The notes: generated from the sequence alone by a model not told the origin. Numbered from the stretch's first letter, positions 1,863 to 55,719 are shown. The stretch: 64,000 nt of DNA from an uncultured SAR116 cluster alpha proteobacterium (GCA_902542765.1 CACBVW010000004.1:351-64350); one strand, 5' to 3'. Numbers and translations are program-made.

Positions 1863-1970
1863 AAATTTTGATTTAATACGCTTAAATATATTGAATTAAA
1901 AAAAATTAATTGTTATTTATTTAGTATAATTCTTTTACATCATATTCAAACTTAATTTTTGGGAGATAAA

Positions 1971-2843
1971 ATGTCAGAAACACAATATTTAGCTGCAAAA
2001 ACTATTGATGAAGCAGTTAATGCTCATGAAAAAGCCAATGGAACAGCACGTTTTTTAGCTGGTGGAACAGATTTGTTAGTTCAAATCAAAAGCGGTATCA
2101 GAAAGCCGAATTTAGTTATAGACATTAAAAAAATTGTTGAGTTAAATTCTATTAATGAAAATTCAGATGGTGAATTTGAAATTGGTGCCTCAGTATCAGG
2201 CGCTAATTTAAATAGAAATTCTAAATTTGCTAAACTTTGGCCAGGTGTATTAGAGGCATTCAGATTAATTGGATCAGAACAGATACAAGGAAGAGCGTCT
2301 TTAGGTGGAAATCTATGCAACGGATCACCAGCCGGTGATAGTGTTCCAGCTTTAATCGCAGCTGGTTGTAAAGCAGTTATTGCTGGTCCAAAAGGTAGAA
2401 AAGATGTACCTATTGAAAATTTTCATTTAGGACCAGGAAAAACCGTTTTAGAAAATGGAGAAATGCTCGTGAGTTTAAAATTTCCTAAACGTGTATCAAA
2501 TTCTGCGGATGCTTATTTAAGAATGACTCCTAGAACTGAGATGGATATTGCTGTTGTTGGTTGTGGTGTGAATATTTCATTGGAAAATGATATTTGTACT
2601 CACGCAAGAGTTTCTTTAGGTGCTGTTGCACCAACACCCTTATTAATTAAGGAAGCATCAGATATTATGATTGGATCAAAGCTTGATGATGACACTCTAG
2701 ATAGGGTTTCCAAAATATGTATGGATGCTTGTAATCCAATTAATGATAAAAGAGGAACAGTTGACTATAGAACAAAAGTTGCAGGCGTTTTGGCTAAAAG
2801 AGCTACAAAATTAGCAGCTGAAAGAATTGGAGGAAATAAATAG
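1971..2843 (+). CDS. molybdenum hydroxylase FAD-binding subunit (CoxM/XdhB-like)
   Basis: LAGGTDL and ASLGGNLCNGSPAGD motifs; ATG 1971 preceded by GGGAG. Confidence 0.92.
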   Translation: MSETQYLAAKTIDEAVNAHEKANGTARFLAGGTDLLVQIKSGIRKPNLVIDIKKIVELNSINENSDGEFEIGASVSGANLNRNSKFAKLWPGVLEAFRLIGSEQIQGRASLGGNLCNGSPAGDSVPALIAAGCKAVIAGPKGRKDVPIENFHLGPGKTVLENGEMLVSLKFPKRVSNSADAYLRMTPRTEMDIAVVGCGVNISLENDICTHARVSLGAVAPTPLLIKEASDIMIGSKLDDDTLDRVSKICMDACNPINDKRGTVDYRTKVAGVLAKRATKLAAERIGGNK

Positions 2844-2844
2844 T

Positions 2845-3324
2845 ATGGCAAAAATTCAAGTTTCAACTAAAATAAACAACGAAAATATAGACTATTTATG
2901 TGAACCACATGATACTATGTTGGATGTTTTAAGAAACCAATTAAATTTGACTGGATCGAAAGAAAGCTGTGGTTCAGGTGATTGTGGTTCTTGTAGTGTA
3001 ATCCTTGATGGTGAATTAATCTGCTCTTGTTTGATGTTAGCTGCAGAAGCAGAAGGAAGCAATATTGAAACTATTGAAGGTATGTCAGAAGGTGGCAAAC
3101 TTCATGCATTACAACAAAAATTTCTTGAAAAAGCTGCACTTCAATGTGGCATTTGTACACCTGGTTTCTTAATGGCTTCTAAAGCTTTATTAGACCATAA
3201 CCCTTCACCAACAGAAACTGAAGTAAGATATTGGCTGGCTGGCAATTTATGTAGATGTACTGGATATGACAAGATTGTAAAAGCTGTATTAGAAGTTGCT
3301 GATGAAATGAAGGAGAGTGCATAA
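2845..3324 (+). CDS. molybdenum hydroxylase [2Fe-2S] subunit (CoxS-like)
   Basis: CGSGDCGSC..CSC and QCGICTPG..NLCRCTGY; ATG 2845 preceded by GGAGG. Confidence 0.94.
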   Translation: MAKIQVSTKINNENIDYLCEPHDTMLDVLRNQLNLTGSKESCGSGDCGSCSVILDGELICSCLMLAAEAEGSNIETIEGMSEGGKLHALQQKFLEKAALQCGICTPGFLMASKALLDHNPSPTETEVRYWLAGNLCRCTGYDKIVKAVLEVADEMKESA

Positions 3325-5561
3325 TGAATGAAATTAGCAATAAATGGATTGGTAAAAACACTATTAGACCTGACGGTGCAGATAAGGTTACTGGTCGAGC
3401 ACAATATTCATCAGACACAACAATGCCAGGTATGATTTGGGGTCATGTATTAAGAAGCCCTCATCCACACGCTAAAATTTTGTCTATTAACACAAAAAAG
3501 GCAGAGGAATTAGAAGGAGTTAAGGCAGTAATTACATCCAAAGATGTTGTTGACTTCCCTATTGATACGCCAGTTATACTTGGTATCCAAGATATGCGAT
3601 GGATGTGTAGAAATGTTATGGCTAGAGACAAAGTTCTTTTTCATGGCCATCCACTTGCAGCGGTTGCTGCAACAACTGAGGAAATAGCAGAAAAAGCATG
3701 TGAATTAATAGAGGTAGAATACGAAGTTTTACCATGGGCCATTGAGATTGACGACGCAATAAAACCTGACGCCCCTATTCTACATGATCACATTAAATTT
3801 GAAGGAAAGTCTTCAAATATAGCTGGCACGCTAGAGCATAAAAAAGGTGATATTGATAAAGGTTTTTCAGAATCTGATGTCATTATAGAAAGGGAATTTA
3901 AAACAGAAGCAGTACATCAAGGTTACTTAGAAACACATTCATGTTTAGTAAGTGTTGCGGCAGATGGTAGAGCTACTATATGGAGCTCAAGCCAAGGTCA
4001 ATTTATGGTTAGAGCAATGACCTCATATTTAACAGGTATACCTCAGAGTAACATCAGAGCAATACCTGCTGAAATTGGTGGAGGATTTGGAGGCAAAACT
4101 ATTGTTTATTTGGAACCATTAGCTACTATCTTGTCACAAAAAACAGGCCGTCCAGTTAAAATAGTTATGAACAGAGAAGATACAATGAGAGCTTCCGGGC
4201 CTACATCTGGATCTAAAAGCAAAATTAAAATTGGTGCTACTAAAGATGGAAAGATTGTTGCGGCACAAGGAACATATTATTTACAAGCAGGAGCTTTTCC
4301 CGGTTCACCTATTAGAGGTGCAGTAGGATGCTCTCTTGCACCATATGACATTCCTAATGCACATACTTTTGGTTATGACGTTGTATCTAACAGATGTAAA
4401 GTTGCTGCATACAGAGCTCCTGGAGCTCCTATTGGTGCATATGGAGTCGAATGTGTTTTAGACGAAATTGCTGAAAAACTTAACATGTGTCCTTTGGAAT
4501 TAAGAAAAATTAATGCTGCAAAAGAAGGAACCCAAGCAGTCCACGGCCCTACTTATCCTCAAATGGGATATTTGGAAACAGTTGAAGCAGCAATAAACCA
4601 TCCTCATTATAAAGCTCCTTTAGGCAAGCATCAAGGTCGAGGCGTAGCTAGTGGTTTTTGGTTTAATGCTGGTGGAGAATCAAGCGCACAGTTAAACATC
4701 ACTGAAGACGGTAATGTAGTTGTAACTACAGGACATCCGGATATTGGAGGTTCCAGAGCATCTATAGCCAATATTACTGCTGAATTATTAGGTATTCATC
4801 ATGATAAAGTATCGGTTTTAATTGGTGACACAGCAACAATTGGATACAGCAACCTTACTGGTGGAAGTAGAGTATTATTTGCTTCTGCAATGGTAGTAAC
4901 TGAATCTGCAAAAATAGTAATTAAACAATTAAAACAAAGAGCAGCTAAAATTTGGGGTATTGATGAAGAGGCAATTGAGTGGGAAAATGGTGAAGCCAGA
5001 CCTGCCGGTGATAATGCAGGAAAATTTGCTCCACTTACACTGGCTGAATTAGCAGAAAAAGCCACCGCGACCGGTGGTCCAATTGGTGCTGGATACCAGG
5101 TAAACACTGAAGGTGCTGAAGGTGGCTTTGCAACTCATATTTGTGATGTTGAAGTTGATATGGATCTTGGTATAGTAAGAGTAAAGCGATACACATCTAT
5201 ACAAGACGTTGGTAAGGCCATTCATCCTGATTATGTGGAAGGCCAGCTTCATGGTGGTTGTGTTCAAGGTATTGGCTGGGCTTTAAGCGAAGAATATATC
5301 TACAATAAAGATGGTCATTTGGATAACACTGGATTTTTGGATTATAGAATGCCTGTCTGCTCAGATTTACCAATGTTAGACACTGTATTAATAGAAATTC
5401 CTAACCCCAAACATCCGCAAGGGGTAAGAGGTGTAGGTGAAGTTCCTTTAGTTCCACCCTTGGCAGCTATATCAAATGCAGTTTATCAAGCAATCGGAAA
5501 ACGTTCGTACAGCCTTCCGATGTCGCCACCTAAAGTATTGAAGATTATAGAGGGTAATTAA
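3324..5561 (+). CDS. xanthine dehydrogenase-family molybdopterin-binding large subunit (CoxL-like, not a form I CODH)
   Basis: KVTGRA, GGGFGGK, AYRAPG, GGSR, GQLHGG, GVGE motifs; TAATG overlap with small subunit. Confidence 0.92.
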   Translation: MNEISNKWIGKNTIRPDGADKVTGRAQYSSDTTMPGMIWGHVLRSPHPHAKILSINTKKAEELEGVKAVITSKDVVDFPIDTPVILGIQDMRWMCRNVMARDKVLFHGHPLAAVAATTEEIAEKACELIEVEYEVLPWAIEIDDAIKPDAPILHDHIKFEGKSSNIAGTLEHKKGDIDKGFSESDVIIEREFKTEAVHQGYLETHSCLVSVAADGRATIWSSSQGQFMVRAMTSYLTGIPQSNIRAIPAEIGGGFGGKTIVYLEPLATILSQKTGRPVKIVMNREDTMRASGPTSGSKSKIKIGATKDGKIVAAQGTYYLQAGAFPGSPIRGAVGCSLAPYDIPNAHTFGYDVVSNRCKVAAYRAPGAPIGAYGVECVLDEIAEKLNMCPLELRKINAAKEGTQAVHGPTYPQMGYLETVEAAINHPHYKAPLGKHQGRGVASGFWFNAGGESSAQLNITEDGNVVVTTGHPDIGGSRASIANITAELLGIHHDKVSVLIGDTATIGYSNLTGGSRVLFASAMVVTESAKIVIKQLKQRAAKIWGIDEEAIEWENGEARPAGDNAGKFAPLTLAELAEKATATGGPIGAGYQVNTEGAEGGFATHICDVEVDMDLGIVRVKRYTSIQDVGKAIHPDYVEGQLHGGCVQGIGWALSEEYIYNKDGHLDNTGFLDYRMPVCSDLPMLDTVLIEIPNPKHPQGVRGVGEVPLVPPLAAISNAVYQAIGKRSYSLPMSPPKVLKIIEGN

Positions 5562-46242: not shown

Positions 46243-46962
46243 ATGATTGATATAAAACCTAAAAACGTTCTAGAGCAACCTATTTACATGCTTACAAAAG
46301 CAACTTCATGTCCATATTTAATTGGAAAAGTTGAAAAAAGAATAGCTACAGATATCTCTTACAATAAAAATATATATGAAGAGCTTTCTATAAATGGTTT
46401 TAGAAGAGTTGAAAATTGGATGTACAGACCAGTATGTGACAATTGTAGCGCCTGTAAATCTTATAGAGTAGACATACAAAATTTTAAAATAACAAAAAGC
46501 TTAAAAAGAATTTCCAAAAATTTTGAAAATTTTAGTTTTAATTTAGTTAAGAACATCTCAACTAAAGAACATTTTGATCTTTTTAAAAAATATCAATTAG
46601 AAAGACACCCTGGTGGATCTATGTCAGATATGGATGAAGATGAATTTACTTCAATGATAGAAACATCACCAATAAAAACTTCACTTTTAGAATTTAGAGA
46701 TAAATCTAAAAATTTAACAGGGGTTATTCTTTTAGATATTGATAAAAAAAACTTATCAGCTGTATATAGTTTTTTTGATCCAGAATTTAATAAATTTGGT
46801 TTAGGAAATTATATGATTATGCAATGCTTGTTATATGGGAAGAGTAAAAAATATGAGTTTTTGTACCTTGGTTATTATATTGAAGAGTTAACAAGTATGT
46901 CATACAAATCCAGGTTTAAGCCAGGACAAATATTAAAGAATAATGATTGGGAAAATTTTTAA
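46243..46962 (+). CDS. ATE1-like aminoacyl-tRNA-protein transferase (Bpt / putative arginyltransferase)
   Basis: CPYL, GFRR, YRP.C..C.AC, SAVYSFFDP, YLGY.I...M.YK..F.P. Confidence 0.9.
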   Translation: MIDIKPKNVLEQPIYMLTKATSCPYLIGKVEKRIATDISYNKNIYEELSINGFRRVENWMYRPVCDNCSACKSYRVDIQNFKITKSLKRISKNFENFSFNLVKNISTKEHFDLFKKYQLERHPGGSMSDMDEDEFTSMIETSPIKTSLLEFRDKSKNLTGVILLDIDKKNLSAVYSFFDPEFNKFGLGNYMIMQCLLYGKSKKYEFLYLGYYIEELTSMSYKSRFKPGQILKNNDWENF

Positions 46963-46964
46963 CT

Positions 46965-48557
46965 TTATCCTCCAATAGCTGATCCATCGCTCCTTAAATC
47001 ATACCCTCCTTCTTTCAGACCATTGGGATAACACACTAAAGCACCTGCATGACCCATAATTTCTTCAAATGCTCCTACCTTTTCAACAATATGACCCATA
47101 GATTTTAATTTATCAATAGTATCAGTAGAAAAACGCTCTTCAATTTTTAATGAAGTCGTTTCCTCACCCCATGTTTTGCCTAAGAGCCATCTTGGTTCGT
47201 TAACTGCATTCTGTAGGTTTAAATTTTGAACATTATATCTATAAAATATTGTAGCTTGTGTCTGTGGTTGCCCTTCTCCACCCATAGTCCCGTATGACAT
47301 TACCCTACCATCATCGAAATGAGCTAATGCTGGTTGAATTGTGTGAAATGGTTTTCTACCAGGTAATAAATGATTATGATTTTTTAGATCAAGAGAAAAG
47401 CTTATCCCTCTATTTTGCATTGTTATACCAGTATTAGGTAAAACTAAACCTGATCCAAACTCCCAATAAATACTTTGTATAAAACTTATAGTATTTCCAT
47501 ATGTATCAGTGGCACCTAACCAAACTGTATCACCGCCTGGAGAAGACGCAGGCCAAGGTGTAGCTTTTTCAAAATTAATTTCCTCAGCTAATTTTTTAAT
47601 AAAATCTTTTGTTAAAAATTCACTAACATGAAAGCTCATATATCTCGGATCAGAAATATATTCGTCTCTTATCTTAAAAACTGATTTTGTTATCTCAACA
47701 ATATTATGGATTAATTCAACATCATTTTTGCAAGTAATTGATAATTCATCTAGCAATCCTAAAATTAATATAGATGCTAATCCTTGAGTGGGTGGTGGTA
47801 AGTTAAATAATTTAGCATCTTTAATTTTTAATTCTAAGGGATCTACAAAAGTTGCTTTATAATTTTTAAAATCTTCTGAACTTAATGGAGATCCTAAATT
47901 ATTTAAATCAGAAATGATTTTACTAAAGACTTCACCTGCATAAAAGTCCTCTAACCCATTTTTTATAAGGCAGGAAAAAGTATTCGACAAATTTGGAATA
48001 ATTAATTTATCTCCAACATTTGGAATTTTTCCATTTTTTAAATAAACATCTTTGAAACCTACAAGATCAACAAGCTGATTTAATTTTGATTTTAAATTAT
48101 TTCTTAAAGTATTAGTAACAGCAATTCCTTCTTTAGCAGCTTGTTCAGCATCAAACAAAAGTCTACTTATTGGAATTTTACCTCCTAAATTTTTAACACT
48201 AAAATCATATGCAAGTTTCCAACCTGCTACAGCGCCTGGAACAGTTAAAGCCGACAGTGGTCCTCGTGATGGAATAGTGTTAAAACCTAGTTTTTTATAA
48301 AAGTCTATATTTATATTATTAGATGCTGGTCCACAGGAATCAATTGCATGAACATTTTTGTTTTTGTCAGAAATTAACCAGAAATTATCACCACCCATAG
48401 AATTCATATGAGGATATACAACTGATATCATTGCAGCAGAAGCAATCATAGCTTCAACAACATTACCACCTTCCTTTAATATATCAGATCCAGTTTTTGT
48501 TGCTAAATGATGAGGAGCAATCATCATATAGTTATAAGAAAGTTTTGAAGAAAGCAT
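46965..48557 (-). CDS. gamma-glutamyltranspeptidase-family Ntn hydrolase, HpxW (oxamate amidohydrolase)-like; alternative TTG start 48572
   Basis: APHHLA, VVYPHMN..GGD.FWL, PPPTQG, GDTVWLG (catalytic Thr), SFIQSIY.EFGSG, MGGEGQPQTQ, PRWLLG.TWG, MGHAGA. Confidence 0.88.
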   Translation of the reverse strand: MLSSKLSYNYMMIAPHHLATKTGSDILKEGGNVVEAMIASAAMISVVYPHMNSMGGDNFWLISDKNKNVHAIDSCGPASNNINIDFYKKLGFNTIPSRGPLSALTVPGAVAGWKLAYDFSVKNLGGKIPISRLLFDAEQAAKEGIAVTNTLRNNLKSKLNQLVDLVGFKDVYLKNGKIPNVGDKLIIPNLSNTFSCLIKNGLEDFYAGEVFSKIISDLNNLGSPLSSEDFKNYKATFVDPLELKIKDAKLFNLPPPTQGLASILILGLLDELSITCKNDVELIHNIVEITKSVFKIRDEYISDPRYMSFHVSEFLTKDFIKKLAEEINFEKATPWPASSPGGDTVWLGATDTYGNTISFIQSIYWEFGSGLVLPNTGITMQNRGISFSLDLKNHNHLLPGRKPFHTIQPALAHFDDGRVMSYGTMGGEGQPQTQATIFYRYNVQNLNLQNAVNEPRWLLGKTWGEETTSLKIEERFSTDTIDKLKSMGHIVEKVGAFEEIMGHAGALVCYPNGLKEGGYDLRSDGSAIGG

Positions 48558-48568
48558 ACTAATGCCTA

Positions 48569-51223
48569 TCAAAAATATAAGGACAAATCACGGTGATCAG
48601 ATTTACAGCCTGCTAAAAACAAAGCAATATCTTTAGGAATTTTTTGCTGTTGTCTTAATCCTATTGTAAATTTTGTATTATTAAGAAATAATGATAAAGC
48701 GTCGATTACTTTATTATCAATTTTTTTAAGATCACTATATTTTTTTTCATACTCTGCGAAAGAAAGATTAAAATCTTTTACAACTTTTTTATAATTTACT
48801 TTTTTCTTCTTTAAATTTCTAGACACTTTTGAGAGTTTGGATATAATATTTGAATTATCGGGTAAACGTGAAACCTTTTTAGACAAAACTTTAATTTCTT
48901 TTGATAAAGATTTAGGCTCACTTATCTCTAATATATTGCTAAATTTTTTAAACTCATCTCTAAACATATAAAATTCATTTCTTGATAATAAAATGTAAAG
49001 CAGTGTTGTCATTTCGTCATACGAATTATCCATTGCTCTTCTATATTTAGTACGATTTAAATTTTCTTCTTTTATTAATTTCTGAAAATTTTTATAGGTA
49101 TCAGACCAATTTTTTGGAAAATCTCTTTTTTCAATTTGAATATCATTTTTAAGTTTTTCAATTTCTGATTTAAAAAATGAAATTCTTTGTTTATCATCAT
49201 TTTCAATTCTTGAAATGATTGTTTCATTATTTTTAATTAAAGATTCAAGTTCTCTAATATTTTTTTCTTTATTTCTTACTGTTTTTAATAATGGCAAATA
49301 ATTTATAGATTGATCTTGTATTTTAGCTTCAATTTCAAATGCTTTTTTTAAGTTCAATAAACCACTTTCAATTGAATTAATGGAGTTTGTAATTGTAGTG
49401 TAATATTTCTTAGGCATAGAGGACAAATCAGCTTTAGATAAATTTGTAACTGAGAGTTTTGTTAAACTATTAGAATTTAATACATTGTCTTTCATATATT
49501 TTTCTGTACACAATTGTAATTTTGGGTTCTTTGGAGGAGGAGATGTCTCTGAAAGAAAATTTAGTCTATTTGGTAAGTAATTAACTAAAAATGGGTATGA
49601 GCCAACAACTGCTAAAGCTATTAATTGTAAAGTTATAAATGGCACAACACCTTTATACATTTGGATAGTCTTAACTGCTTTTGAAGCAACACCTCTTAAA
49701 TAAAACAAAGCAAAACCAAAAGGAGGAGTTAAAAAAGAGGTCTGAATATTTAGACCAATCATTACCCCTAACCATACAGCTGTTATATTTGCTGAAGGAT
49801 CCGCAAGTAGAATAGGTGCGACAATTGGCACTACTACAACTGCAATTTCAATAAAATCTAGGAAAAAACCCAGTATAAAAATTACTATCATTACAATAAC
49901 AAATTTTGACCAAAAACCACCAGGCAGAGAATTTAAATATTCTTTTACAAGTTCTTCTCCTCCAAACGCTCTAAACGCGGCTGTAAGCATAGCAGCACCC
50001 AAAAGAATGATAAAAACTAAAGAAGTTGTTTTGGCTGTTTCCATCATTACACCTTGCATAGTATTATTTAGCTTAAATAGTCTCCAACTGCTCCATCCAA
50101 GGGCAAATAATAAAATAAAAGATCCTAAAACACCTATGAAAATACCTATTTTATCCTCAAACGTATTTATAAGTTTTACATTCATCGTATAATTGCCGAC
50201 TGCATATGCCAAAAGTAATATTGCAATTAAAACTAATATTGCTGGATACAAAGAGGATTTTTTTCCTTCTGTTTGCCTGTAACCAGCCATTATAATAGCA
50301 CCGGCCGCACCTATTGCGCCAGCCTGATTCACAGTGGCAATTCCAGTAATAATTGAGCCTAACACTAATATAATTAATGTTAATGGAGGTATTAATATCA
50401 ACATTACATTTAGCCAGAATTTTTTGTCCATTTTACCTTCATATGGAACTGAGGGGGCGCTTTTAGGTGAAACAAAAGCTAATAACAAAATAAAAAGCAT
50501 ATATATGCCTACAAGCAAAATACCTGGAAGAAAAGCACCTAAAAACATTTCTCCTGCGCTAGTGGATACAACATCAAATACTGACGGCATTGATATTTGT
50601 CCTGTTGCTTCTTTATAAAGAGCTTTTCTCATAGTACTAGCTTGATCCGAGGCTGTTGCAAGTTGATCAGCTAAAATAATTAAGACAATAGACGGAGGAA
50701 TGATTTGTCCTAAGGTTCCAGATGCAGCTATTGTTCCAGTAGCAAGAGGTGCAGAATATTTATTTCTAAGCATAGCTGGCAAAGATATTAATCCCATTGC
50801 TACGACGGTTGCACCAACAATTCCAGTTGTAGCAGCCAGTAATGCTCCAACAAAAACGACTGAAATTCCTAAACCACCACGAACAGGGCCAAAAAGTTGT
50901 GCCATGGTTACTAACAAATCTTCAGCAATTTTAGATCTTTGTAGCATTAAGCCCATAAAAATAAACAAAGGTATGGCTATTAATGTGTCTCTTTCAACCT
51001 CCCAATAAACACCTCTCAGGTTTGTTACTCCAGCAGACAACCACTCAGATGCCCCACCAGAATAAAAATATGCATCCGTGTTATTTTCAAATAAATATCC
51101 AAAAAGAGCAGCAACACCTATAGAAATTATAGCTGAACCAGGTAAAGCAAAAGCAACTGGGAAACCTGATCCAAGAGAAATGGCCATCAAAATTATTAAT
51201 AATACTAAAAATAAAAGTTCCAT
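48569..51223 (-). CDS. TRAP transporter large permease DctM with ~330-aa soluble C-terminal extension
   Basis: AIPLFIFMG, SGTLGQIIPPS, LGFFLDF.EI, QTSFLTPPFG; hydrophilic helical tail after YLP. Confidence 0.92.
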   Translation of the reverse strand: MELLFLVLLIILMAISLGSGFPVAFALPGSAIISIGVAALFGYLFENNTDAYFYSGGASEWLSAGVTNLRGVYWEVERDTLIAIPLFIFMGLMLQRSKIAEDLLVTMAQLFGPVRGGLGISVVFVGALLAATTGIVGATVVAMGLISLPAMLRNKYSAPLATGTIAASGTLGQIIPPSIVLIILADQLATASDQASTMRKALYKEATGQISMPSVFDVVSTSAGEMFLGAFLPGILLVGIYMLFILLLAFVSPKSAPSVPYEGKMDKKFWLNVMLILIPPLTLIILVLGSIITGIATVNQAGAIGAAGAIIMAGYRQTEGKKSSLYPAILVLIAILLLAYAVGNYTMNVKLINTFEDKIGIFIGVLGSFILLFALGWSSWRLFKLNNTMQGVMMETAKTTSLVFIILLGAAMLTAAFRAFGGEELVKEYLNSLPGGFWSKFVIVMIVIFILGFFLDFIEIAVVVVPIVAPILLADPSANITAVWLGVMIGLNIQTSFLTPPFGFALFYLRGVASKAVKTIQMYKGVVPFITLQLIALAVVGSYPFLVNYLPNRLNFLSETSPPPKNPKLQLCTEKYMKDNVLNSNSLTKLSVTNLSKADLSSMPKKYYTTITNSINSIESGLLNLKKAFEIEAKIQDQSINYLPLLKTVRNKEKNIRELESLIKNNETIISRIENDDKQRISFFKSEIEKLKNDIQIEKRDFPKNWSDTYKNFQKLIKEENLNRTKYRRAMDNSYDEMTTLLYILLSRNEFYMFRDEFKKFSNILEISEPKSLSKEIKVLSKKVSRLPDNSNIISKLSKVSRNLKKKKVNYKKVVKDFNLSFAEYEKKYSDLKKIDNKVIDALSLFLNNTKFTIGLRQQQKIPKDIALFLAGCKSDHRDLSLYF

Positions 51224-51226
51224 TTA

Positions 51227-52192
51227 CTAATGTCCTAACTGATCTTCTATAATTCGTTTACCTTTTTCACCATGATAATCAGCAAGAGATTCAAAAAAAT
51301 AACTTATAAATTGAATCAGCATTGTTAAACCAAAAATACCCAGAAACATAGCAAGATGGTATTTTATAAACATACCGACACTACCCTGTTGTGTTATTTC
51401 AAAATTTAGAACTGGACTATTAATTATTGATTGTTTCCCGTTAAATCCTATAAATATGATTGTCAATGAGGTGGATACACCAAGAGTTATTGATCCAATT
51501 GAATTAACAAGACCTTTTGTTCTATCTTTAAGTCCTTGATATAAAATATCTACCCTAACATGACCTTCATCATAAAGTGTATATGCAGATGCAAATAAAA
51601 ATAATCCTGCATACCAATAACGTACAAGATCTCCCATAAATGTTTGTTCATATGAAAAAATAAATCTGGTAATAACTATAACAAGTTCACTTAACACAAT
51701 TAAAAGAGATAACCAGTGAAAACCTAATGTTCTTGTAAATAAGCCAAGAATAAAACCAATTATAATTAATGGAATGTGTATATAAGTACCAACAAAAACG
51801 GGTCTTGTGAATTGAGCTGTAATACTTTTTGTTAAGAAAAGGTCAAAGATTTTTTCAACTCTTAAGAAAGCAATCGAAATATCAACTATCCCTATTAAAA
51901 AAATTACCCAAAAACAAGAACGAATAATGTAGATATTCAAATTATGTAAAAATTTAGCATCAATTCTTAGGGATTGGTTCTTATATTTAGGTATAAAATA
52001 AAAAACAAGACATAAGGAAAATAAATAAATCACTAACTCAATTAATGGGAACAGTGAAAAACCGTTAATCAAAGATAAAATGCCAGGAAATTGGAAGCCG
52101 ACCATTAATATATTGTCAATCAAAAAAGCAAATATAATCGCTAATGTTGACCACCCAAATAATCGGTAATAAGTATAAATATTTTTATCCAT
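51227..52192 (-). CDS. TRAP transporter small permease DctQ with extra N-terminal TM segments
   Basis: VITRFIF, SAYTL..EGHVRVD.LY; 321 aa. Confidence 0.88.
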   Translation of the reverse strand: MDKNIYTYYRLFGWSTLAIIFAFLIDNILMVGFQFPGILSLINGFSLFPLIELVIYLFSLCLVFYFIPKYKNQSLRIDAKFLHNLNIYIIRSCFWVIFLIGIVDISIAFLRVEKIFDLFLTKSITAQFTRPVFVGTYIHIPLIIIGFILGLFTRTLGFHWLSLLIVLSELVIVITRFIFSYEQTFMGDLVRYWYAGLFLFASAYTLYDEGHVRVDILYQGLKDRTKGLVNSIGSITLGVSTSLTIIFIGFNGKQSIINSPVLNFEITQQGSVGMFIKYHLAMFLGIFGLTMLIQFISYFFESLADYHGEKGKRIIEDQLGH

Positions 52193-52200
52193 TTTTTGAA

Positions 52201-52227
52201 TAGAGGTCAGCTTTTAGCTGACCTCTA
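52201..52227 (-). other. strong stem-loop between dctP and dctQ
   Basis: Perfect 12-bp inverted repeat TAGAGGTCAGCT-N3-AGCTGACCTCTA; no long U tract on the coding strand. Confidence 0.8.
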
Positions 52228-52236
52228 GTTATTATT

Positions 52237-53337
52237 TTATGAAAGTCCTAAGACTCTATTTCTTTGGTTGACATATGATATTTCAAACTTTGCCATCATA
52301 CTTCCACATTCTTTTAAAAATGCTTGATAGGCATCATCTATTTCTTTGGCTAATGCAGAATGATTTCTTGTTTCTTCAAAAACTTCTGCCGCAGCCTCTC
52401 CAAATGAATCCCATACATCATCATTAAATGATTTTACCTTAGTACCATGTTCATTAATGAGTTTTGCAAGGTATTCACCATTTTTAGCACATGTTTCTTC
52501 GTATTGAGCTGCATGTTCTTCCATAGAAGCAGCAGTAATGAGAGCCTTTTCATTATCTGTTAGCTTACCCCAGAAACTTGCATTAAATGCTAAAGCTAGA
52601 CATGAGCCTGGCTCATGCATACCACCTGTGTAGTAATATTTAGCAGCTTCATAAAATTTCATGAAATAATCATTGTAAGGACCTACCCACTCTGTAGCAT
52701 CAATTGAGCCTGATACTAAATTTTCATATATTTGTCCACCTGGTAATGAAACTGGAGAAGCGCCTAATTTTGACATTACTGTACCACCTAATCCAGGAAT
52801 TCGCATTTTAAGTCCTTTTAGATCTTCACTAGAGTTGATTTCTTTATTAAACCATCCACCAGCTTGCGTGCCAGTTCCACCACATGGAAGTGCTTTTAAA
52901 CCAAACTCACCTGACATTTTATCCCAGAGCTGTTGTCCACCACCAAACTTAATCCAAGCATTCCATTCAACAGTAGTCATACCAAATGGTACAGCTGTAA
53001 AATAAGCAAAACCAGGATGTTTACCTTTCCAATAATAATCTGCAGCAATGTAAGCTTGTGAATTTCCAGATGCAACTTCGTCAAAAACGTCAAATGCTCC
53101 AACTTTTTCACCTGCGGCAAAGTAATTAACCTTTAATTTACCTTTAGATAACTCTGTTATTCTAGCTGATAATCTTTGAGCTGATAATCCTAAACCTGGA
53201 AAATCTCTTGGCCAAGTTGATACTATATTAATCTCTTTATGGCCTCCTGCAACAGCTGGTGCAGATAATGCAGATGCGCTAGCAACACCAGCTACCACGC
53301 CAACACCTGCTTTAGATATAAAATCTCTACGTTTCAT
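52237..53337 (-). CDS. TRAP substrate-binding protein, TakP (2-oxo/monocarboxylate-binding) family, Tat signal
   Basis: MKRRDFI Tat motif; YYWKGK, Q.GGWF, LKMRIPG, DATEWVGP, HEPG; SD GGGAGG. Confidence 0.9.
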   Translation of the reverse strand: MKRRDFISKAGVGVVAGVASASALSAPAVAGGHKEINIVSTWPRDFPGLGLSAQRLSARITELSKGKLKVNYFAAGEKVGAFDVFDEVASGNSQAYIAADYYWKGKHPGFAYFTAVPFGMTTVEWNAWIKFGGGQQLWDKMSGEFGLKALPCGGTGTQAGGWFNKEINSSEDLKGLKMRIPGLGGTVMSKLGASPVSLPGGQIYENLVSGSIDATEWVGPYNDYFMKFYEAAKYYYTGGMHEPGSCLALAFNASFWGKLTDNEKALITAASMEEHAAQYEETCAKNGEYLAKLINEHGTKVKSFNDDVWDSFGEAAAEVFEETRNHSALAKEIDDAYQAFLKECGSMMAKFEISYVNQRNRVLGLS

Positions 53338-53502: not shown

Positions 53503-55719
53503 CTAATTAAAAATGGGTGGTCTTGGAAAGCCATTAGGAACCATCCTACCTGCACCACCCCTTTTACCCTGCCATGTTAATAAATCTTTTTCTTTTCTCT
53601 GACGTCCACCAGTCATTTTCCAAATTATTCCATCTTCTTTATTAAATGTAGTTATATCAGACAACGTACCATCTTTATATCTTTGAAGAATAACACCTTT
53701 TCCTTTATTTAATTCTGGAACTTCATCTACTGAATACACCAATAATTTTCTATTATTACCAACAACAGCAATAGTATCTCCTTCAATTTTTTTACACACT
53801 ATTGCTTTGTTATCGCCTTTGACATTTAATATTTGTTTTCCAGATTTTGTCTGTGCAACAATATTAGAAGTATTAATTTTAAAACCATGACCTGATTCAA
53901 GTGCTAAAACTATATTTCCTTCAAAAATTGGGAAGCAAGATATTATTTTATCTTCTGCTTTGAGATCTATAATAAGAGATATAGGTTCTCCAAAACCTCT
54001 TCCAGAAGGAAGTTTGTTTGCAAGAACGCAAAAAAATCTTCCATTGTCTGCGAAGAAAATTATTTTATCAGTAGTAAATGCATGTATCTTAAATTTTTCT
54101 TTATCACCTTCCTTATATTTTATCTCAACATCATCATTTAAATGACTTTTTTGAGTTCTAATCCATCCTTGATCAGATAAAATGATTGTTACTGGTTCTT
54201 TGGTTACAAATTGATCTTCATCAAATTCTTCAACCAAAGGTAAATCACCAATTTCTGTTTTTCGGTTTGCAATATCTTGGAAATCTTTCTTAAGATTTTT
54301 TATTTCTGAATAAATTTCTTTCCATTGAACATCAACGTTATTTAAAATATCATTTAAATTATTTTGTTCAATTTCTAATTTACTAAGTTCATTTCTTAGT
54401 TCAATTTCCTCTAACTTTCTAAGTGAACGTAGACGCATATCTAAAATAGCATTAGCCTGAATTTCGTTAATCTTAAAATAGGATATTAAAACCAACTTAG
54501 GATTGTCTTCTTCTCTTATAATTTCAATAACTTTATCAAGGTTTAAATATACAATTATATAACCATTTAAAATATTAACTCTATTTTCAATTTGATTTAA
54601 TCTATATTTACTTTTTCTCTGCAGAATGATTTGTCTATGATCTAACCAAGATTTCAGTGCTTCTTTTAAAGATTTTACACCAGGTATATTTTTATCATCA
54701 ATTACATTTAAATTAAGGGAAACTCTTGCCTCTAAGTCTGTTTTTTTAAAAAGTGTTTCCATAATCATTTCGGGTGATAAATTTCGACTTTTTGGCTCAA
54801 TAACTATTCTAACATTTTCTGTACTTTCATCTCTTATATCAGAGAGCATAGGAAGAAATTTATTATCCATCAACTCAGAGATTTTTTCTAACAATCTACT
54901 TTTTTGAACTTGGTAGGGAATTTCACTTATAATTATTTTCCATTGTCCACCTTTCATATTTTCAATATTCCATCTAGCTCTTAATCTAAAACTTCCTTTT
55001 CCATTATTGTAAGAGTTTTCAATTGATGATTTTGGTTCAACTAAAATACCTCCTGTAGGAAAATCTGGTCCTTTTATAAAATTAGAAATCGTAGTATCAG
55101 AAGCATTTGGAAATTTAATTAAATGAAGCAGAGCATCAATTAATTCGTACATATTATGTGGAGGAATTGAAGTTGCCATACCTACCGCAATACCCTGCGA
55201 TCCATTAGCCAATAAATTAGGAAAAGCTGAAGGCAATACTACAGGCTCTTTTCCCTCGTCATCATAAGTGATTCTAAAATCTACCGTATCTTTATCAATA
55301 TCAGCTAATAATAATTCTGCAGCCTTAGACATTCTTGCCTCAGTATATCTCATGGCTGCTGCATTATCTCCATCGATATTACCAAAATTACCCTGACCAT
55401 CAACTAAAGGATATCGCAATGCAAAGTCCTGAGCCATTCGTACCATCGAATCGTAAATTGCAGCATCTCCATGAGGATGAAATTTTCCCATTACATCACC
55501 TACAACACGAGCAGACTTTTTGAATGATACGTTATGATTTAGTTTTAATTGCATCATCGCAAATAAAACTCTTCTATGAACAGGCTTTAAGCCATCTCTT
55601 ACGTCTGGCAAAGATCTTGATGTTATTGTTGATAATGCATACGAAAGATATCGCTCAGAGATTGCTTTTGAAAAAGGAGTAAGGCTTATATTTTCATTTT
55701 GTAATTCTTCATTTTCCAT
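53503..55719 (-). CDS. parC: DNA topoisomerase IV subunit A
   Basis: [23 protein letters not shown]; short CTD, no GyrA box; after recO. Confidence 0.95.

What the first reader, a model, noticed from the sequence alone, without database searches (positions are those of the whole stretch)
46965..53337. TakP-type TRAP transporter coupled to an HpxW-like amidohydrolase: candidate oxamate / 2-oxo-acid-amide scavenging operon
Seen: four co-oriented genes dctP-dctQ-dctM-ggt with gaps of 44, 3 and 11 nt or less, sitting between core genes (parC and the ATE1-like transferase). Known: the binding protein keeps the TakP cation/2-oxo-acid motifs (Q.GGWF, KMR, EWVGP, downstream Glu), and the GGT-family protein has the GDTVWxG / SFIQSIY.EFGSG / PRWLLG.TWG pattern of Klebsiella HpxW, which hydrolyses oxamate to oxalate and ammonia in purine catabolism. 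Oxamate is an isostere of pyruvate, a TakP ligand. The usual hpx neighbours are absent. Inference: a stand-alone module importing oxamate or a related small keto-amide and releasing its nitrogen, a plausible uncharacterised N source for an oligotroph.
Basis: partly seen in the sequence, partly recalled or inferred. Interest (0 to 1): 0.72.

Follow-up and report, generated by a model that had tools for sequence, protein, structure and literature searches.

The report
Oxamate amidase joined to ancient importer
In one family of marine bacteria a gene for a likely oxamate-splitting enzyme sits directly behind an old, widespread transporter predicted to import small keto acids, so these cells may gain nitrogen from oxamate, although most bacteria with this transporter lack the enzyme.

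Summary
The four genes, gaps and motifs are as described. The hydrolase is an HpxW orthologue: 46% identical to Klebsiella HpxW, nucleophile kept, glutathione-binding residues of true GGT lost, and relatives often beside oxamate-making allFGH or hpxYZ genes. The binding protein keeps all six TakP cation/2-oxo-acid contacts. But the unit is not a purpose-built module. The transporter is an old resident of the parC-ate site: 39 of 87 genomes of sister families carry it and none of the 87 carries hpxW; in a class-wide sample 7 of 31 carriers have hpxW and none was found adjacent. hpxW was added once, in this family, and kept, while the transporter genes were swapped in place. Best reading: a general 2-oxo-acid importer with a recruited oxamate amidase, oxamate likely one ligand among several. 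A better candidate for a dedicated oxamate importer turned up elsewhere: a second TakP-like clade whose 10 of 10 carriers have hpxW, 8 adjacent. The window's DctM also carries an uncharacterised 330-residue helical extension with two invariant cysteines. The scan reported this arrangement before on another genome. No ligand or activity was measured.

The parts
52237..53337 (-). dctP, TakP-type TRAP solute-binding protein, 366 aa, Tat-like N-terminus (MKRRDF). TakP contacts kept: Y102, Q158, R179, E216, W217, E242; clade signature A[AG]DYY / ATEW
52201..52227 (.). perfect 12-bp hairpin between dctP and dctQ; likely stabilises the dctP part of the message (inferred)
51227..52192 (-). dctQ, long form, 321 aa, 7 hydrophobic segments by hydropathy; Pfam DctQ covers only residues 171-301
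49559..51223 (-). dctM membrane part (residues 1-555), about 12 hydrophobic segments
48569..49558 (-). dctM C-terminal extension (residues 556-884): all-helical model, two cysteines (C572, C873) invariant in 32 of 32 homologues; no Pfam match; likely periplasmic and disulfide-closed (inferred)
46965..48557 (-). hpxW-like Ntn amidohydrolase, 530 aa, no signal peptide evident; predicted self-cleavage before the Thr at 47526-47528 (T349 in 535-aa numbering, = T342 of Klebsiella HpxW)
53503..55719 (-). parC, upstream flank; marks the ancestral site of the transporter
46243..46962 (+). arginyltransferase (ate/bpt family), convergent downstream flank; directly follows dctM in genomes G426 and G041, which lack hpxW

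Best explanation
An old, widespread TakP-type transporter that likely imports small 2-oxo (or 2-hydroxy) acids has, in this one family, gained a gene for a likely oxamate amidohydrolase at the end of its predicted operon, so oxamate entering as one of several ligands would be split into ammonia and oxalate. Shown: gene order, orthology, conserved catalytic and binding residues, the age of the transporter relative to the link, and retention of hpxW under purifying selection. Inferred: co-transcription; DctP binds a cation plus the carboxylate and 2-oxo oxygen of the ligand as TakP does; DctQM moves it in on the ion gradient; HpxW self-cleaves, its new N-terminal Thr attacks the amide carbon, ammonia leaves, the oxalyl-enzyme is hydrolysed; ammonia is assimilated and oxalate is probably excreted, since no oxalyl-CoA decarboxylase was found. 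The gain would be nitrogen, removal of a pyruvate mimic, or both.
For: Hydrolase: 46.3% identity over 529 columns to K. pneumoniae HpxW, which is its best match in the own genome by far (464 bits against 197 and 87 for two paralogues); best solved relative 5HFT; falls with HpxW in a 114-row clade (support 99) apart from the paralogues; of 80 related loci 17 have allF, 14 allG, 12 allH, 12 allK and 5 an AtzH/HpxZ gene plus amidase nearby; one annotated relative is followed by an oxalate/formate antiporter. Transporter is older: 39 of 87 sister-family genomes have it, 0 of 87 have hpxW; in 8 of 20 distant genomes it lies between parC and ate without hpxW, in G426 and G041 in the window's own order. 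Link is stable: 30 of 30 genus genomes with a full ate gene have hpxW beside it; three genera of the family; dN/dS 0.12. No allG, hpxZ, allF or hpxY orthologue in the 5 genus genomes tested per search, which suggests an outside source. A sister TakP-like clade pairs with hpxW in 8 of 10 genomes, so this fold is compatible with the enzyme's substrate. RNA-library contigs span the dctM-hpxW junction in 5 of 6 runs (weak).
Against: No ligand or activity was measured. The pocket residues do not differ between hpxW-linked and unlinked members, apart from variable positions 245-247, so nothing in the protein marks adaptation to oxamate. 24 of 31 carriers in the class sample have no hpxW. The transporter genes were replaced in place several times while hpxW stayed, which fits loose coupling. 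TakP's pocket is described as hydrophobic and poor for polar tails (PMC1839085). No paper found gives oxamate levels in seawater or oxamate binding by a TRAP protein.
Confidence: 0.5

Rival explanations
1. Hitchhiker: hpxW was parked behind a strongly expressed housekeeping transporter during genome streamlining and acts on oxamate made inside the cell or entering by another route; the TRAP carries pyruvate-like acids only.
For: Single origin of the link (one 100%-supported hpxW clade); transporter widespread without hpxW; same pocket signature either way; the nearest hpxW relatives on the tree sit with allFG(H), not with a transporter (support only 89-90); the genus has a separate purine-degradation cluster (8-oxoguanine deaminase, OHCU decarboxylase, allantoicase) whose intermediates could leak to oxamate by an unknown route.
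Against: No known oxamate-forming gene found in near-complete relatives; 11-nt gap kept tight across the family; TakP-type transporters are repeatedly hpxW partners elsewhere; hpxW is somewhat more frequent in carriers of this transporter (7 of 31 against 29 of 369, Fisher p 0.014, overstated because kin are not independent).
Confidence: 0.22
2. One reading: the four genes form a dedicated oxamate (or oxalurate) import-and-deamidation module, with oxamate as the main ligand of this transporter.
For: Tight operon geometry and family-wide conservation; precedent of dctPQM-hpxW operons; an invariant acidic residue (D100) beside the pocket where TakP has Gly could in principle hold an amide NH2 (orientation not determined).
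Against: The same acidic residue and pocket occur in all 39 unlinked rows of the clade in the tree; 39 sister-family genomes carry the transporter with no hpxW; the clade that does track hpxW is a different one (36-42% identity, N[SA][YF]FW motif, normal-length DctM).
Confidence: 0.15
3. The hydrolase has drifted to another small amide (a 2-oxo-acid amide or an N-substituted oxamate) that the transporter imports, releasing an acid the cell can use as carbon.
For: Only 46% identity to the one characterised enzyme; long branch leading to the family's clade (0.58); differences near the active site against Klebsiella HpxW (SIY-W-EFG for SIY-H-EFG, GGEG for GGDG, TIQP for TLNP); no oxalate-using enzyme found.
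Against: Those same variants are carried by the homologues that sit beside allFGH-allK, where oxamate is the expected substrate; the motif blocks are otherwise nearly invariant.
Confidence: 0.13

Closest known systems
Klebsiella pneumoniae HpxW, oxamate amidohydrolase (PDB 5HFT; Hicks and Ealick 2016, seen only as cited in PMC5270733)
   Same: 46% identity full length, same start position, nucleophile Thr aligned (T342/T349), shared motif blocks, no signal peptide.
   Different: Klebsiella hpxW is in a cluster with hpxY, hpxZ, an aminotransferase and allantoate amidohydrolase that make oxamate in the cell; here none of these adjoins it and it follows a transporter.
Rhodobacter sphaeroides TakP (2HZK/2HZL) and related cation-dependent 2-oxo-acid binders (7UG8, 4PET, 5CM6, 4YZZ)
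   Same: All six cation/pyruvate contacts and Y99 kept; model superposes at Z 46.8, rmsd 1.4 A over 333 residues, including the long C-terminal helix.
   Different: Only 31-36% identity; pocket changes F40W, V97A, G98D, P243S, V245L; partnered by an elongated DctQ and an 884-aa DctM.
Unnamed dctPQM(-tauE)-hpxW operon of Halomonadaceae, Marinobacterium, Rhodoferax and Hyphomicrobiaceae
   Same: Same gene order and same two protein families.
   Different: Different DctP clade (N[SA][YF]FW, AAEF), DctM of about 440 aa, and tight co-occurrence with hpxW (10 of 10 genomes, 8 adjacent).
E. coli AllFGH oxamic transcarbamylase pathway (PMC11326118)
   Same: Produces oxamate, called a dead-end product that accumulates to 17.7 mM in culture; its homologues neighbour many hpxW genes.
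   Different: Not found in this family; relevant as a possible outside source of oxamate.

Membership tests
HpxW oxamate amidohydrolase | Ntn-hydrolase of GGT fold with Thr nucleophile at the self-cleavage site | tested here: met
   GD/TVW aligned with the first residue of 5HFT chain B; T342 in the Klebsiella gene, T349 here
HpxW oxamate amidohydrolase | Orthology to Klebsiella HpxW rather than to other GGT-like proteins | tested here: met
   Best hit in the own genome, 464 against 197 bits; same clade, support 99, FastTree only
HpxW oxamate amidohydrolase | Adjacent oxalurate-degrading genes (hpxXYZ or allFGH) | tested here: not met
   None among the window's ORFs; none found in 5 genus genomes per search
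HpxW oxamate amidohydrolase | Hydrolyses oxamate to oxalate and ammonia | not testable with these tools
   Needs an enzyme assay
Canonical gamma-glutamyltransferase | Gamma-glutamyl binding residues (E. coli R114, Q430, D433, S462, S463) and curated cut-off | tested here: not met
   Aligned residues are C, R, S, H, T (R114, D433, S462/S463 roles from PMC8062742; Q430 recalled); 319.5 bits under the 357.85 cut-off, although Klebsiella HpxW also misses it
Canonical gamma-glutamyltransferase | N-terminal signal peptide (mesophilic GGTs) | tested here: not met
   N-terminus aligns directly with HpxW residue 1 and has no hydrophobic leader by inspection; no predictor was run
TakP-type cation-dependent TRAP binding proteins | Y100, Q156, R177, E214, W215, E240 (TakP numbering) | tested here: met
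   Y102, Q158, R179, E216, W217, E242
TakP-type cation-dependent TRAP binding proteins | Long C-terminal helix used for dimer swapping | tested here: met
   Helix 297-332 of the mature model; top six structural matches are TakP-type; the dimer itself was not modelled
TakP-type cation-dependent TRAP binding proteins | Binds a 2-oxo acid with Na+ or Ca2+ | not testable with these tools
   Needs DSF or ITC
hpxW-tracking TakP-like TRAP clade (candidate oxamate importer) | N[SA][YF]FW / AAEF signature, normal-length DctM, same branch of the DctP tree | tested here: not met
   Window protein has AADYYW / ATEW, an 884-aa DctM and lies in another clade

The most novel reading that the evidence does not exclude
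Oxamate is a cross-fed dissolved nitrogen compound in the sea, and TakP-type TRAP transporters have been harnessed for it twice: once as a dedicated dctPQM-hpxW operon spread across Proteobacteria, and once in this oligotrophic family, which dropped the oxamate-making genes, kept hpxW and attached it to its resident keto-acid importer, a transporter type whose DctM carries an undescribed disulfide-closed helical domain.
Probability: 0.35. Interest if true: 0.65.

Novelty: new variant of a known kind. Interest (0 to 1): 0.42.

Why it matters
No transporter for oxamate turned up in the literature searches made here, and oxamate is described as a dead-end product of allantoin breakdown (PMC11326118). 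If a streamlined marine family keeps an oxamate amidase with no known way to make oxamate, oxamate may be an overlooked nitrogen source in seawater. The work gives two concrete binding-protein clades to screen, one in culturable non-pathogenic genera (Halomonas, Marinobacterium), and points to an abundant, uncharacterised TRAP type with an extra domain. If the link is only positional, the locus is an ordinary case of gene recruitment during streamlining.

Tried and rejected
True GGT or cephalosporin acylase: rejected on residues, tree and scores. Recent horizontal insertion of the whole four-gene block: rejected; GC3 is 0.15-0.21 like the flanks (0.13-0.18), hpxW diverges in step with ate and hemB, and the transporter is at this site in distant genomes. 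Empty-site test in the genus: uninformative; the 5 genomes checked that lack hpxW also lack ate and parC, so the region is unassembled. Neighbour-based substrate guess for the transporter clade: no recurring catabolic neighbour (dddP/hpt, glcDEF-like, iron alcohol dehydrogenase, acyl-CoA synthetase, bioY, each in a few genomes). Promoter and terminator scan: counts equal to shuffles (42 against 40.7; 4 against 3.5). Fold search of the DctM extension: no Foldseek match at E 0.001 or better; VIA-align best Z 11.5 over 85 residues, four-helix bundles only, within the range expected by chance for helical models; this does not show a new fold. The Atlas search for that domain gave no result. RNA contig depth was not used to rank genes; joints with 20-29-letter sides were treated as noise. 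The primary HpxW paper and the Vetting 2015 screen could not be read, so HpxW active-site roles beyond the nucleophile and the ligands of 4PET, 5CM6 and 4YIC are not verified. No complex was predicted: enzyme and transporter are not claimed to bind.

Full report
Observation. The hydrolase most likely starts at the ATG at 48557 (530 aa), which aligns with the first residue of Klebsiella HpxW. A perfect 12-bp hairpin lies between dctP and dctQ. The own genome is 54% complete, so statements of absence rest on relatives.

The hydrolase. Its best solved relative is 5HFT (E 1e-76 and 2e-68 for the two chains). I fetched the Klebsiella gene with its cluster (hpxZ, an AtzE-type amidase and allantoate amidohydrolase confirmed). 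Identity is 46.3% over 529 columns, the nucleophile T342 aligns with T349, and the Klebsiella protein scores 464 bits against this gene and 197 and 87 against two other GGT-like genes of the genome. Against E. coli GGT the gamma-glutamyl contacts R114, Q430, D433, S462 and S463 are replaced by C, R, S, H and T (residue roles from passages of PMC8062742, Q430 recalled). A FastTree tree of 131 rows (139 collected, 8 close genus rows dropped) puts it with HpxW in a 114-row clade of support 99, apart from the paralogues. Context points the same way. AllFGH makes oxamate from oxalurate (PMC11326118, passages). One annotated relative is followed by an oxalate/formate antiporter. The few active-site differences from Klebsiella are shared with the allFGH-linked homologues. 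dN/dS against G005 is 0.12, like the flanks (0.07-0.14). I put oxamate activity at about 0.85; it was not measured, and the primary paper was not available, only its citation in PMC5270733 (passages).

The binding protein. The TakP paper (PMC1839085, parts 2 and 3 of the text) names Y100, Q156, R177, E214, W215 and E240 as the cation and pyruvate contacts; all are kept (alignment, columns). The AlphaFold model (pLDDT 94.3) matches 4YZZ, 2HZL, 4YIC, 7UG8, 5CM6 and 4PET at Z 44.6-46.9, then lactate binders at 38-39. This fixes the chemistry (cation plus small carboxylate with a neighbouring oxygen) but not the ligand: identity to these is 31-36%, the paper says TakP's natural ligand is unknown and that polar tails bind poorly, and a Ca2+-dependent TRAP protein of SAR11 binds isethionate (PMC11485210, passages and supplement rows; its kinship to TakP is recalled, not tested).

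Linkage in relatives. Of 45 genus genomes, 31 have hpxW and 31 have ate; all 30 with a full ate have hpxW beside it, one has only an ate fragment, one only an hpxW fragment, and 13 have neither; 5 of these were checked and also lack parC, so the region is probably unassembled. The arrangement extends to three genera of the family (13 of 16 family genomes have hpxW; order of genes). Contigs from RNA libraries cross the dctM-hpxW junction with at least 31 letters to the contig end in 5 of 6 runs; DNA can be present in such libraries, so this is weak.

The transporter is older than the link. In the three sister families of the order, 39 of 87 genomes have the DctP orthologue (58-65% identity) and 0 of 87 have hpxW. 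Among 400 genomes drawn from the class, 31 have the orthologue at E 1e-130 or better and 36 have hpxW at E 1e-120 or better; 7 have both, on different contigs or 1.2 Mb apart; non-adjacency was seen directly for 6 of the 7 and not checked for G229. The overlap is above the base rate (7 of 31 against 29 of 369, Fisher p 0.014, overstated). Of 20 distant carriers whose surroundings I fetched, 11 have parC nearby and 8 both parC and ate; none has an HpxW-type gene there, and G426 and G041 show the window's order with dctM running straight into ate. So hpxW was inserted once between dctM and ate. The family's hpxW genes form one clade (support 100) whose nearest relatives sit with allFG(H) (support 89-90 only). 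Within the family hpxW diverges in step with ate and hemB (69-84% against 63-83% and 71-85%), whereas DctP ranges from 62 to 95% regardless of parC identity and falls in three places on the DctP tree (quick tree, the careful search did not finish): the transporter genes were exchanged in place while hpxW stayed. Pocket positions W42, L49, A[AG][DE]YY, Q158, R179 and E242 are essentially the same in the 16 linked and 39 unlinked rows.

A better candidate elsewhere. Nineteen of the 80 hpxW loci have a different TakP-like transporter with a normal-length DctM, upstream, convergent or divergent, often with tauE; the 16 that entered the tree form their own clade (support 96). Because those were found through hpxW, I searched 400 genomes of the phylum with the binding protein alone: 10 have it (7 genera, 4 families); in 8 dctPQM is followed by hpxW, in one case with tauE between, and the other 2 carry hpxW elsewhere. 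Their pockets have Asn where TakP has V97, which would suit an amide ligand (inference). This clade looks like the dedicated importer; the window's transporter is not in it.

Source and fate of oxamate. AllG, AtzH/HpxZ and oxalyl-CoA decarboxylase were not found over their cut-offs in G000, G006, G018, G010 and G009 (54-97% complete; positive controls rang); AllF and HpxY gave only paralogue-level matches in G445, G457, G006, G018 and G010. G009 and G006 have a purine cluster elsewhere with 8-oxoguanine deaminase, OHCU decarboxylase, a PuuE-like gene and allantoicase, a route that by established knowledge ends in glyoxylate and urea. An outside source of oxamate is therefore plausible but not shown.

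Mechanism and odds. Best reading (0.5): a general small-acid importer with a recruited oxamate amidase, oxamate being one ligand among several. Rivals: positional hitchhiker (0.22), dedicated oxamate module (0.15), different amide (0.13).

Literature. Ten searches of the held library were made. 'oxamate' with 'TRAP' and 'solute binding protein' gave 0 papers; 'HpxW' with 'oxamate' gave 4, none on transport by title or the passages read. Subscription journals are largely missing, and one supplementary file of PMC11485210 could not be searched. The scan had noted the same arrangement on another genome with a similar conclusion (e1-5457991); my reading was written before seeing it, and it is not independent evidence.

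Verdict. Real and conserved, both protein families known, the pairing undescribed in what I could search: a new variant of a known kind. The claim of a dedicated module is weakened by the transporter's history; the second clade and the DctM extension are the more promising leads. Interest 0.42.

Noticed in passing
L109:4059-9590, L152:5024-9593, L279-L283, L285, L286, L288: A separate TakP-like TRAP clade (N[SA][YF]FW, AAEF) that tracks hpxW: 10 of 10 genomes carry hpxW, 8 directly downstream, often with tauE or a GntR regulator. Strong candidate for an undescribed oxamate importer, with tauE as a possible oxalate exporter.
   Followed up: partly
window 48569-49558 (minus strand): 330-residue C-terminal extension of DctM, confident all-helical model (pLDDT 89.7), two cysteines invariant in 32 of 32 homologues, no Pfam or clear structural match; marks a widespread marine alphaproteobacterial TRAP clade that also has a long DctQ.
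   Followed up: partly
L069, L070, L252-L255 against window 48569-53337: The transporter genes are mosaic within the family: DctP 62-95% identical while flanking genes follow vertical descent, and G457 holds two different versions; suggests repeated in-place replacement.
   Followed up: partly
L102, L103, L114, L117-L119, L123, L161, L258: Marine Rhodospirillales-type genomes carry allantoate amidohydrolase, an aminotransferase, allG-allF-allK-allH and hpxW in one cluster: a hybrid of the E. coli and Klebsiella oxalurate routes that would recover the last nitrogen E. coli leaves in oxamate.
   Followed up: partly
L087-L093, L095, L096, L099, L101, L105: In Granulosicoccaceae-type genomes hpxW is followed by a class-V aminotransferase (cysteine desulfurase-like) and a PALP-CBS gene, with no purine genes recognised nearby.
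   Followed up: no
L256:72-15830 and L257: Purine-degradation cluster of the genus (8-oxoguanine deaminase, allantoicase, dihydropyrimidinase-like, OHCU decarboxylase, PuuE-like) with its own TRAP system and a hydantoinase/oxoprolinase pair.
   Followed up: partly
L061:5762-7102, L062, L063, L064, L072: In one sister family the same long-DctM transporter lies next to the DMSP lyase dddP and hpt; probably positional.
   Followed up: no
window 1959-5561 (+): Three-subunit molybdopterin oxidoreductase of the xanthine/CO dehydrogenase family between two EamA transporters, 41 kb from the finding.
   Followed up: no
L295 (G829:C4): Same gene order in a third genus; hpxW, era and recO each appear in two or more frames, probably assembly errors.
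   Followed up: no
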